DNA of 24,304 nucleotides from a virus (Duplodnaviria; Heunggongvirae; Uroviricota; Caudoviricetes). Position numbers: made by a program. The number at the start of each line of letters is the position of its first letter. Position 1 is the first letter of the stretch. The stretch is taken from IMG/VR virus record IMGVR_UViG_642979322_000003. One strand, 5' to 3'. This document shows positions 1-3,000 of this stretch, in pieces.

Positions 1-3000
1 TTGCCATCACGGCGGTGCAGCACGTACCGGAAAAAGAAGCCATCGTGGATAACGGTGCCCGCTTTGAGCCGCAGTCAGGTTCCCTGAACAGCGTCATCCC
101 ACCGGCAGTACAGCACCTGACGGTGGAGGTGAGTGCAGCTGACGGCCAGTATCTGGCGCAGGCTAAATGGGACACGCCGCGGGTGGTGAAGGGCGTGCGC
201 TTCAGTCTGCGCCTGACCAGTGGTAAGGGAACGGATGCCAGACTGGTGACCACCGCCATCACCGCAGACACGGAGCACCGTTTCAGCGGCCTGCCGCTCG
301 GGGAATACACCCTGACGGTGCGGGCGATAAACAGCTATGGCCAGCAGGGTGAACCTGCCACCACCACCTTCCGGATTGCCGCACCGGCAGCACCGTCGCG
401 GATTGAGCTGACGCCGGGCTATTTTCAGATAACCGCCACGCCGCATCTTGCCGTTTATGACCCGACGGTACAGTTTGAGTTCTGGTTCTCGGAAAAGCGG
501 ATTGCGGATATCAGGCAGGTTGAAACCGCAGCCCGCTATCTTGGCTCGGCGCTGTACTGGATAGCTGCCAGTATCAATATCAAACCGGGCCATGATTATT
601 ATTTTTATATCCGCAGTGTGAATACTGTTGGCAAATCGGCATTCGTGGAGGCTGTCGGTCGGGCGAGCGATGATGCGGAAGGTTACCTGGATTTTTTCAA
701 AGGAGAAATCGGGAAAACACATCTGGCCCAGGAGCTGTGGACGCAGATTGATAACGGTCAGCTTGCGCCGGACCTGGCTGAAATCAGGACGTCCATTACG
801 AATGTCAGCAATGAAATCACGCAGACCGTCAATAAAAAACTGGAAAATCAGAGTGCGGCAATCCAGCAGATACAGAAAGTTCAGGTTGATACAAATAATA
901 ACCTGAACAGCATGTGGGCCGTGAAACTGCAGCAGATGCAGGACGGACGCCTTTATATTGCGGGTATCGGTGCCGGTATTGAGAATACGCCAGCAGGAAT
1001 GCAGAGTCAGGTGCTGCTGGCGGCAGACAGGATTGCGATGATTAATCCTGCGAATGGCAACACAAAGCCGATGTTTGTTGGTCAGGGCGATCAGATATTT
1101 ATGAATGAAGTGTTCCTGAAATATCTGACGGCTCCCACCATTACCAGTGGCGGCAATCCTCCGGCATTTTCCCTGACATCAGACGGAAAGCTGACCGCTA
1201 AAAATGCGGATATCAGTGGCAGTGTGAATGCGAACTCCGGGACGCTCAACAACGTCACGATTAACGAGAACTGTCGGGTTCTGGGAAAACTGTCCGCGAA
1301 CCAGATTGAAGGCGATCTCGTTAAAACAGTGGGCAAAGCTTTCCCCCGGGACTCCCGTGCACCGGAACGGTGGCCATCAGGGACCATTACCGTCAGGGTT
1401 TATGACGATCAGCCGTTTGACCGGCAGATTGTTATTCCGGCGGTGGCATTCAGCGGCGCTAAACATGAGAGAGAGAGCATACTGATATTTACTCCTCATG
1501 CCGTCTGATAGTGCGGAAAAACGGTGCTGAAATTTATAACCGTACCGCGCTGGATAATACGCTGATTTACAGTGGCGTTATTGATATGCCTGCCGGTCAC
1601 GGTCACATGACGCTGGAGTTTTCGGTGTCAGCATGGCTGGTGAATAACTGGTATCCCACAGCAAGTATCAGCGATTTGCTGGTTGTGGTGATGAAGAAAG
1701 CCACCGCAGGCATCAGTATCAGCTGAATTTTATAACCCATATACGGGCGCCAGAAATGGCGCCTTTTTTATTGCAGAAAAGCGAGAGGTAATTATGCGTA
1801 AACTTTATGCCGCCATTTTGTCCGCAGCCATCTGTCTGGCCGTATCCGGCGCGCCTGCATGGGCGTCTGAGCAGCAGGCCACGCTGAGCGCGGGGTATCT
1901 TCATGCCCGGACGAGCGCTCCCGGTAGCGATAATCTTAACGGGATTAACGTGAAATACCGTTATGAATTTACGGACACGCTGGGGCTGGTGACGTCATTC
2001 AGCTATGCAGGAGACAAGAATCGCCAGCTTACCCGTTACAGCGATACCCGCTGGCATGAAGATTCCGTGCGTAACCGCTGGTTCAGCGTAATGGCGGGGC
2101 CGTCTGTGCGCGTGAATGAATGGTTCAGCGCGTATGCGATGGCGGGTGTGGCTTACAGCCGTGTGTCGACTTTCTCCGGGGATTATCTTCGCGTAACTGA
2201 CAACAAGGGGAAAACGCACGATGTGCTGACCGGAAGTGATGACGGTCGCCACAGCAACACGTCTCTGGCGTGGGGGGCTGGCGTGCAGTTTAACCCGACC
2301 GAATCCGTGGCCATTGATATTGCTTATGAAGGCTCCGGCAGTGGCGACTGGCGCACTGACGGTTTCATCGTGGGTGTCGGTTATAAGTTCTGATTAGCCA
2401 GGTAACACAGTGTTATGACAGCCCGCCGGTTCAGGCGGGCTTTTTTGTGGGGTGAATATGGCAGTAAAGATTTCAGGTGTACTGAAAGACGGCACAGGAA
2501 AACCGGTAGAGAACTGCACCATTCAACTGAAAGCCAGACGTAACAGCGCCACGGTGGTGGTGAACACGGTGGCCTCTGAAAATCCGGATGAAGCCGGTCG
2601 TTACAGCATGGACGTTGAGTACGGTCAGTACAGCGTTATTCTGTTGGTGGAAGGGTTCCCGCCGTCACATGCCGGGACCATCACCGTGTATGAAGATTCT
2701 CAACCGGGGACGCTGAATGATTTTCTCGGTGCCATGTCGGAGGATGACGTCCGGCCGGAGGCACTGCGTCGTTTTGAACTGATGGTGGAAGAAGCGGCGC
2801 GTCACGCTGAGGAGGCGAAGAAGAATGCCGGAGAGGCGGAGACGTCCGCGAGGAATGCCGGCATATCAGCCAGTCAGGCAGAAGAGAGCGCGGCAAATGC
2901 TGACACTTCAGCAGGGGATGCATCGGAGTCAGCCCGGCAGGCGGCAGAAAGTGCAGCCGCTGCAAAGCAGTCAGAGGAGGCGTCCTCGTCCTCGGCCTCT

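What the first reader, a model, noticed from the sequence alone, without database searches (positions are those of the whole stretch)
1461..1510. J tail fibre gene frameshifted within a (GA)5 dinucleotide tract
J terminates at 1508 ([14 protein letters not shown]), while the +2 frame from 1469 continues as [23 protein letters not shown]... to 1726 with no RBS of its own. Removing one GA unit from the run at 1467-1477 would fuse the frames to read ...[10 protein letters not shown]... This truncates the C-terminal region of J, which in lambda is the receptor-binding region. It may be a decay mutation, a slipped-strand on/off switch, or a sequencing error.
Basis: seen in the sequence. Interest (0 to 1): 0.55.

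Follow-up and report, generated by a model that had tools for sequence, protein, structure and literature searches.

The report
Frameshifted J gene in defective prophage
The tail-tip (host-recognition) gene J of a decayed lambda-like prophage (Sp12) of E. coli O157:H7 is broken by one extra GA in a short GA run; this is a real mutation inherited by the lineage, already flagged in public annotation, and ordinary prophage decay rather than a switch.

Summary
A (GA)5G run lies at 1467-1477. The J reading frame stops at 1506-1508, and the remaining 82 codons of J continue in the +2 frame to 1726.

The window is the Sp12 prophage of a Sakai-like E. coli O157:H7.

- **Not a sequencing error.** The exact (GA)5 86-mer occurs in 216 complete E. 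coli genome records.
- **Ancestral state is (GA)4.** It reads HEREH, gives an intact 1158-aa J, and is kept at the same locus in O55:H7 DEC5B and sorbitol-fermenting O157 493/89. Its 84-mer occurs in 893 records. Other relatives carry GAGAAAGAG (HEKEH).
- **What is lost.** 82 of the ~131 residues of the Pfam J C-terminal receptor-binding domain.
- **Already known.** RefSeq marks gpJ "frameshifted", Sakai splits it into ECs_2234 and ECs_2233, and Asadulghani 2009 lists Sp12 host specificity as defective.
- **Prophage is dead anyway.** Its integrase is disrupted and it does not excise. Sakai J has a second frameshift. EDL933-type loci lack the genes between a truncated L and J.
- There is one in-situ revertant (TX 265-1), a (GA)5 in another prophage's J in clade 9 strains, three (GA)3 records and no (GA)6. 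That is the behaviour of a slippage hot spot, not a phase-variation switch.

Verdict: a known decay mutation of low interest.

The parts
1..1508 (+). 3' two-thirds of gene J (tip attachment / host specificity protein). It enters the window already in frame and ends at a premature stop at 1506-1508. Equivalent to Sakai ECs_2234.
   Evidence: ORF 15..1508. Pfam hits Ig_J, Ig_J_second, Phage_Tail_Tip and Ig_GpJ_C. Identical to Sakai Sp12.
1467..1477 (+). (GA)5G dinucleotide run. It holds one GA more than the in-frame (GA)4G allele, and this is the frameshift site.
   Evidence: Alleles compared.
1478..1726 (+). Out-of-frame remnant of J: the last 82 codons (HTDIY...AGISIS*) in the +2 frame, that is most of the C-terminal receptor-binding domain. 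Sakai annotates 1511-1726 as ECs_2233, starting at a GTG.
   Evidence: Translation. End-to-end alignment to lambda J 959-1131 and to a gpJ C-terminal fragment. PF12421 covers repaired residues 439-569. Sakai annotation.
1744..1771 (+). GC-rich hairpin plus T run (GGGCGCC-AGAAAT-GGCGCC-TTTTTT) after the true J stop. It looks like a terminator and marks the original end of the gene.
   Evidence: Read directly from the sequence. Identical in the close relatives and only partly similar in lambda. Not tested functionally.
1794..2393 (+). lom (Ail/Lom outer-membrane protein), the normal downstream neighbour of J. Given as synteny context.
   Evidence: ORF. Annotation in Sakai and EDL933.

Best explanation
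This is a pseudogenising +2 frameshift in gene J of the defective lambdoid prophage Sp12 of typical E. coli O157:H7.

The likely history has three steps. An AAA-to-AGA (K-to-R) change turned GAGAAAGAG into an uninterrupted (GA)4G run. Replication slippage then added one GA unit, giving (GA)5G, on the branch leading to typical O157:H7. That branch comes after the split from O55:H7, sorbitol-fermenting O157 and the clade 9 strains PV15-279 and F3113. The mutation was then inherited clonally.

The consequence is that J translation ends after 10 wrong residues, and 82 of the ~131 residues of the C-terminal receptor-binding domain are lost. The downstream piece has no evident start signals of its own.

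No selective cost is expected, because the prophage is immobile and carries other lesions in its tail genes. The short run remains a low-rate slippage or gene-conversion site, so rare reversions and parallel events occur.

Shown: the allele states, their distribution, the domain loss and the other lesions. Inferred: slippage as the molecular mechanism, and the lack of any function.
For: - **Frames and tract:**
- **Identity of the locus:** the window equals Sakai Sp12 apart from one SNP and IS629 differences.
- **Frequency of (GA)5:** the exact 86-mer is in 216 complete-genome records. It is 100% identical over 601 nt in Sakai, EDL933, TW14359, EC4115, Xuzhou21 and others.
- **Ancestral allele:** the orthologous locus has the same neighbours (lom, tail fibre, DUF1076/nleG, nleG7, IS256-family transposase). 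There it carries (GA)4 and an intact 3477-nt J in O55:H7 DEC5B and O157 493/89. It carries (GA)4 in an N-terminally truncated J in PV15-279 and F3113, of which F3113 is listed as Manning clade 9.
- **(GA)4 elsewhere:** its exact 84-mer is in 893 records, including O26, O121 and O145 genomes, mostly annotated gpJ.
- **HEKEH relatives:**
- **Domain loss:** PF12421 spans repaired residues 439-569, and the repaired tail aligns end to end with lambda J 959-1131.
- **Existing annotation:** RefSeq 'frameshifted'; Sakai split CDSs.
- **Defective prophage:** PMC2669165 Table 1 lists Sp12 host specificity, integrase, repressor, portal and head as D, with no excision, packaging or transfer.
- **Other lesions:** a 1-nt C deletion in Sakai J. 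In EDL933-type loci L is truncated and no gene is annotated between it and J.
Against: The tract is not completely static.

- TX 265-1 has regained (GA)4 and an intact J ORF.
- PV15-279 carries (GA)5 in a different prophage's J, and F3113 has a second-site (GA)5 match too.
- Three records have (GA)3.

This shows reversibility, so a switch-like reading cannot be excluded on sequence alone. Expression of J or its fragments was not tested. Slippage and short-patch gene conversion cannot be told apart, because about 430 nt around the tract are identical between paralogous J copies.
Confidence: 0.92

Rival explanations
1. Slipped-strand phase variation: the GA run is a contingency tract that reversibly turns J (host recognition) on and off in a population.
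For: - The run lies inside the ORF, and unit gain or loss toggles the frame.
- One natural in-situ reversion exists. TX 265-1 shares an IS629 insertion with 18 other O157:H7 genomes. All 8 others checked have (GA)5, and its J is otherwise identical to those of TX 376-2, YB14-1 and TX 313-1.
- PV15-279 carries (GA)5 in the J of the tccP2 prophage, and F3113 has a second-site (GA)5 match.
- Three records carry (GA)3.
Against: - The exact (GA)5 86-mer is in 216 records, while TX 265-1 is the only typical O157:H7 genome with an otherwise identical (GA)4 copy. No (GA)6 exists.
- Five dinucleotide units is a short tract (my own knowledge of contingency loci).
- The ancestral and widespread state is simply in frame, and many relatives have an interrupted run.
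- The ON state would be useless here. Sp12 has a disrupted integrase and does not excise or package. Sakai-type J has a second frameshift. EDL933-type loci have a truncated L and no annotated gene between it and J.
- Reversion could equally be gene conversion from a paralogous J.
Confidence: 0.04
2. Sequencing or assembly error: the true sequence is (GA)4 and J is intact.
For: Dinucleotide runs can be miscalled. A few odd variants sit in assemblies that may be noisy. Strain 1613 has GAGAGAGAGA-CAT, and SCU-484 has many frameshifted genes nearby.
Against: The identical (GA)5 sequence is in 216 complete-genome records from many laboratories. Assemblies from the same study also resolve (GA)4 where it exists, for example TX 265-1 against TX 376-2.
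Confidence: 0.01
3. Recoding: ribosomes shift on the run, for example tRNA-Glu re-pairing from GAG at 1467-1469 to GAG at 1469-1471 before the rare AGA codon. This would make some full-length J from the (GA)5 allele.
For: Inference only. Overlapping GAG codons allow perfect re-pairing at +2, which would restore HEREH. AGA is a rare codon in E. coli (my own knowledge).
Against: - The frameshifted layout is derived and confined to one clonal lineage, and homologues are in frame.
- There is no X XXY YYZ slippery heptamer.
- +2 shifts are very rare (my own knowledge).
- Sakai-type J is also broken upstream.
- No stimulatory structure was tested.
Confidence: 0.01

Closest known systems
Bacteriophage lambda gpJ (tip attachment protein J / central tail fibre) with its C-terminal receptor-binding domain (Pfam PF12421; PDB 8iyk, 8xcj)
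   Same: - Same gene position (J, then lom, then the tail fibre gene).
- Same Pfam domain series.
- The repaired C-terminus aligns end to end with lambda J 959-1131.
   Different: - The reading frame is broken after the residue equivalent to 1076 of 1158.
- The receptor-binding domain sequence diverges from lambda's, so the receptor may differ. The receptor was not tested.
Other inactivating lesions in the defective Sakai prophages (Asadulghani et al. 2009, PMC2669165)
   Same: Sp12 is listed there with defective host specificity, integrase, repressor, portal and head, and with no excision or transfer. The GA frameshift is one such lesion. RefSeq annotates it as a frameshifted pseudogene.
   Different: Nothing in kind. 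This analysis adds the ancestral allele, the timing and the rare reversion.
Simple-sequence-repeat contingency loci (phase-variable genes of Neisseria, Haemophilus, Campylobacter)
   Same: A short repeat lies inside an ORF, and its unit number sets the reading frame. At least one reversal has occurred in nature.
   Different: - Very short tract.
- Almost fixed length across the lineage, and no longer alleles.
- No functional ON state in this genome.

Membership tests
Lambda-type tip attachment protein J | Pfam J domain series, including the C-terminal receptor-binding domain PF12421 | tested here: met
   The repaired 569-aa fragment hits Ig_J, Ig_J_second, Phage_Tail_Tip and Ig_GpJ_C (profile positions 1-135 of 135), all above their curated cut-offs.
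Lambda-type tip attachment protein J | Sequence homology to solved lambda J through to the last residues | tested here: met
   Query 1-172 aligns to 8iyk_J 959-1131 (E = 1e-42) and to a gpJ fragment, 9wca, at 255-428 (E = 2.5e-65).
Lambda-type tip attachment protein J | Synteny: tail assembly genes, then J, lom and the side tail fibre gene | tested here: met
   Sakai annotation and the lambda record.
Lambda-type tip attachment protein J | Uninterrupted ORF encoding the whole protein | tested here: not met
   Premature stop at 1506-1508 and 82 codons out of frame. It is therefore a pseudogene of this family, not a functional member.
Pseudogene by decay in a defective prophage | An intact ancestral allele at the orthologous locus in outgroup lineages | tested here: met
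   DEC5B (O55:H7) and 493/89 have (GA)4 and an intact 3477-nt J with the same neighbours.
Pseudogene by decay in a defective prophage | Further inactivating lesions in the same gene or prophage | tested here: met
   - A 1-nt deletion in Sakai J.
- Truncated L with no annotated gene between it and J in EDL933-type loci.
- Integrase, repressor, portal and head defects, and no excision.
- nleG pseudogenes and IS insertions.
SSR phase-variable (contingency) locus | A repeat tract within the ORF whose unit number sets the frame | tested here: met
SSR phase-variable (contingency) locus | Frequent tract-length polymorphism among closely related isolates | tested here: not met
   Record counts with exact flanks: (GA)5 in 216, (GA)6 in 0, (GA)3 in 3. 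TX 265-1 is the only typical O157:H7 genome with an otherwise identical (GA)4 copy.
SSR phase-variable (contingency) locus | Length heterogeneity within a clonal culture | not testable with these tools
   This needs raw reads or amplicon sequencing.
SSR phase-variable (contingency) locus | A functional product in the ON state | tested here: not met
   In Sakai-type strains a second frameshift upstream keeps J broken. The prophage is also immobile.
Programmed ribosomal frameshift site | The two-frame layout is conserved among homologues | tested here: not met
   Homologues are in frame.
Programmed ribosomal frameshift site | A slippery heptamer and a downstream stimulatory structure | tested here: inconclusive
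   No X XXY YYZ heptamer is visible in the sequence. A downstream structure was not examined.

The most novel reading that the evidence does not exclude
The short GA run in the receptor-binding domain of J may act as a low-frequency reversible switch shared by paralogous J genes of O157:H7 prophages. GA gain and loss, or exchange between prophages, would then decide which prophage in the defective pool can supply a working tail tip for mobilising virulence genes. The evidence that leaves this open is the TX 265-1 reversion and the swapped pattern in PV15-279, where the Sp12-type J has (GA)4 and the tccP2-prophage J has (GA)5.
Probability: 0.04. Interest if true: 0.45.

Novelty: already known. 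Interest (0 to 1): 0.1.

Why it matters
It matters little. The result confirms that Sp12's host-specificity gene is dead, which fits the published picture of O157:H7 carrying a pool of defective prophages.

There are two minor uses:
- The (GA)5 allele is a clean lineage marker. It separates typical O157:H7 from O55:H7, sorbitol-fermenting O157 and the clade 9 strains examined.
- The rare reversion and the parallel event show that short repeats inside near-identical paralogous tail genes can flip state, by slippage or by gene conversion. This is worth remembering when judging whether a prophage is 'intact' from a single genome.

Tried and rejected
- **Sequencing error:** rejected by the 216 identical records.
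- **A simple (GA)4-to-(GA)5 picture across all relatives:** refined. Phage relatives carry the interrupted GAGAAAGAG, while (GA)4G is a common intermediate allele.
- **TX 265-1 keeping the ancestral (GA)4:** rejected.
  - It shares a derived IS629 insertion with 18 other genomes, and all 8 others checked have (GA)5.
  - It is tir A, clade 7, like the (GA)5 strain F1273 (tir A, clade 7); 7409, also tir A, carries (GA)5 too.
- **Gene conversion versus slippage for the reversion and for the clade 9 (GA)5:**
  - It could not be resolved, because window 1368-1802 is identical between the paralogues.
  - A conversion tract reaching past 1832 is excluded for TX 265-1, which keeps the Sp12-type bases there.
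- **Longer alleles as a sign of hypermutability:** none found.
- **The three (GA)3 records:** one is a noisy assembly, one is an O157 Sp12 locus, and one has a compensating +2 about 40 codons upstream. None was followed to read level.
- **Literature on Sp12 J specifically:** only the 'D' entry in Table 1 of PMC2669165 was found. The word 'frameshift' does not occur in its main text.
- **Not done:** I did not enumerate all roughly 270 near-identical records. Only 60 rows can be listed per search, so (GA)4 copies carrying two or more extra SNPs could have been missed.

Full report
**1. The observation**

The window carries GAGAGAGAGA at 1467-1476 followed by G at 1477. It is the only such run in 24.3 kb, and dinucleotide-preserving shuffles expect 0.02.

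The long ORF that enters the window from the left (listed as 15..1508) reads ...[20 protein letters not shown] and stops at 1506-1508. The +2 frame from 1469 reads [23 protein letters not shown]...[10 protein letters not shown] and ends at 1726. Removing one GA joins the two frames into ...[11 protein letters not shown]....

**2. Where the window comes from**

The 601 bases around the tract are 100% identical to many complete O157:H7 genomes, including Sakai, EDL933, TW14359, EC4115 and Xuzhou21. In Sakai the site lies in 'prophage Sp12, lambda-like phage'.

The window matches Sakai over its full length with three exceptions: one SNP at 8760, one IS629 present in Sakai but absent here, and one IS629 present here (18980-20289) but absent in Sakai. 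It therefore comes from a Sakai-like strain. It covers the end of Sp12 (J 3' part, lom, tail fibre, nleG remnants, IS elements) and part of Sp11.

**3. What the gene is**

The repaired 569-residue fragment hits the Pfam J domains Ig_J, Ig_J_second, Phage_Tail_Tip and Ig_GpJ_C. The last of these is PF12421, the 'C-terminal receptor binding domain', covering residues 439-569 and profile positions 1-135 of 135.

The last 173 repaired residues align end to end with solved lambda J (8iyk, residues 959-1131) and with gpJ C-terminal fragments. The two alleles share sequence through residue 487 (HERE). The (GA)5 allele then adds 10 wrong residues and loses 82, which is about 63% of the receptor-binding domain. 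All intact homologues end at the equivalent of 1726, none at 1508.

**4. Real, fixed and already annotated**

- The exact 86-mer with (GA)5 occurs in 216 complete-genome records. All five of the exact matches listed in the sampled rows are O157 or carry the Sp12 locus.
- RefSeq annotates the gene as 'gpJ ... frameshifted' in EDL933 and in every typical O157:H7 locus I opened.
- The Sakai record splits it into ECs_2235, ECs_2234 and ECs_2233.
- Asadulghani et al. 2009 (PMC2669165, Table 1) list Sp12 as 'D' for host specificity, integrase, repressor, recombination, portal and head. They report no excision, packaging or transfer.

A sequencing error is therefore excluded, and the defect is on record.

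**5. Ancestral state and origin**

The closest phage relatives (VT1-Sakai, PhiR5_1) have CAT GAG AAA GAG CAT, reading HEKEH. The uninterrupted (GA)4G allele (HEREH) has an exact 84-mer in 893 E. coli records, including O26, O121 and O145 genomes.

A 599-nt query equal to the window minus one GA finds five perfect matches:

| Strain | Lineage | J at the Sp12-type locus |
|---|---|---|
| DEC5B | O55:H7 | (GA)4, intact 3477 nt (1158 aa) |
| 493/89 | called an intermediate ancestral strain in PMC10758439 | (GA)4, intact 3477 nt |
| PV15-279 | beta-glucuronidase-positive O157:H7 (PMC6256406) | (GA)4, but N-terminally truncated |
| F3113 | tir T, Manning clade 9 | (GA)4, but N-terminally truncated |
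| TX 265-1 | typical O157:H7, tir A, clade 7 | (GA)4, intact 3477 nt |

All five loci share the same neighbours: lom, tail fibre, DUF1076/nleG, nleG7 and an IS256-family transposase.

The simplest history is K-to-R (AAA to AGA) creating (GA)4G, then a +GA slippage on the branch to typical O157:H7. Slippage itself is inferred, not shown.

**6. Is it a switch?**

I searched for each tract length using the same exact flanks:

| Tract | Records with an exact match |
|---|---|
| (GA)3 | 3 |
| (GA)4 | 893 |
| (GA)5 | 216 |
| (GA)6 | 0 |

Of the three (GA)3 records, one sits in an assembly with many neighbouring frameshifts. One is an O157 Sp12 locus. One has a compensating +2 about 40 codons upstream.

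TX 265-1 is informative. It shares an IS629 insertion 115 nt upstream of J with 18 other O157:H7 genomes. All eight of those I could check carry (GA)5. Its J and flanks are otherwise identical to TX 376-2, YB14-1 and TX 313-1. TX 265-1 is therefore an in-situ revertant with an intact J ORF.

Conversely, PV15-279 carries (GA)5 in the J of a different prophage, the tccP2 prophage next to tRNA-Ser and hyaA. The typical O157:H7 strain TR01 has (GA)4 there. F3113 also has an exact (GA)5 match at a site other than its Sp12-type locus; I did not open that site.

About 430 nt around the tract (window 1368-1802) are identical between these paralogues. Slippage and short-patch gene conversion therefore cannot be separated.

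Overall the tract has changed a handful of times, but it is essentially fixed across the lineage. That is what a weak mutational hot spot looks like, not a contingency locus.

**7. Why reversion would not matter here**

- Sakai-type J, the type in this window, is a mosaic. Window 80-1100 differs from EDL933-type J, and the two are identical from about 1101.
- In Sakai it carries a second frameshift upstream of the window start, GGCCCTAC to GGCCTAC.
- EDL933-type loci have a truncated L and no annotated gene between it and J. This layout is already present in DEC5B and 493/89.
- Sp12's integrase is disrupted and the prophage does not excise.

**8. Recoding**

A +2 re-pairing of tRNA-Glu on overlapping GAG codons could in principle restore HEREH. 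However, the two-frame layout is derived and lineage-specific, homologues are in frame, and there is no classical slippery heptamer. I give this about 1%.

**9. Verdict**

Novelty: already known. Interest: low.

The only mildly new points are:
- the precursor allele;
- the timing relative to the O55:H7, 493/89 and clade 9 lineages;
- one natural revertant;
- a parallel or exchanged (GA)5 in another prophage.

Noticed in passing
L010 (NZ_CP038290.1, TX 265-1) 3049-6525; tract at L010 6268: TX 265-1 has (GA)4 and an intact 1158-aa J at the Sp12 locus. It nevertheless belongs to an IS629-marked clade of 19 genomes in which all 8 other members checked have (GA)5. This is a natural reversion, by slippage or by short gene conversion.
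   Followed up: yes
L012 (PV15-279) 3820-7297 versus L014 (TR01) 3822-7295: In PV15-279 the J of the tccP2 prophage (next to tRNA-Ser and hyaA) carries (GA)5, while its Sp12-type J carries (GA)4. This is the reverse of typical O157:H7. It could be an independent slippage or an exchange between paralogous J genes. F3113 has a matching second-site (GA)5 hit that was not opened.
   Followed up: partly
window 80-1100: The J in this window (Sakai type) diverges strongly from EDL933-type Sp12 J over this stretch and is identical from about 1101 onwards. This points to a recombination breakpoint inside J. Sakai-type loci also keep L, K and I, which EDL933-type loci lack.
   Followed up: partly
L001 (Sakai) about 4160, upstream of the window start: Sakai J has a second frameshift, a 1-nt deletion in a CCC run (GGCCCTAC to GGCCTAC). 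This explains the ECs_2235/ECs_2234 split.
   Followed up: yes
window 18980-20289 and about 9962: Relative to Sakai, the window has an IS629 copy inserted in Sp11 between the equivalents of ECs_2199 and ECs_2201. It lacks the IS629 that Sakai has near the end of Sp12. There is also one SNP at 8760, inside ISEc8.
   Followed up: partly
window 2452-3681: The tail fibre gene has a long collagen-like Gly-X-Y region. Its length differs between strains by in-frame 9-nt and 15-nt indels.
   Followed up: no
window about 4111-6000: A cluster of NleG-family effector genes (nleG2-4, nleG3, nleG7) that Sakai marks as pseudogenes. The first gene is 576 nt in DEC5B, 493/89, TX 265-1 and CEC13091 but 531 nt in EDL933 and Sakai.
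   Followed up: no
L024 (UID2309220031) 817-4293: This J is annotated as intact but has (GA)3 plus a compensating +2 about 40 codons upstream. The result is about 44 out-of-frame residues inside the receptor-binding domain. It may be an assembly artefact.
   Followed up: partly
L011 (strain 1613) 6256-6290: The tract reads GAGAGAGAGA-CAT, that is (GA)5 without the following G, giving a +1 frameshift at the Sp12 locus. It is either real or a long-read error.
   Followed up: no
window 1744-1771: A terminator-like hairpin (GGGCGCC/GGCGCC plus T6) sits between the true J stop and lom. It is identical in the close relatives and only partly similar in lambda.
   Followed up: no
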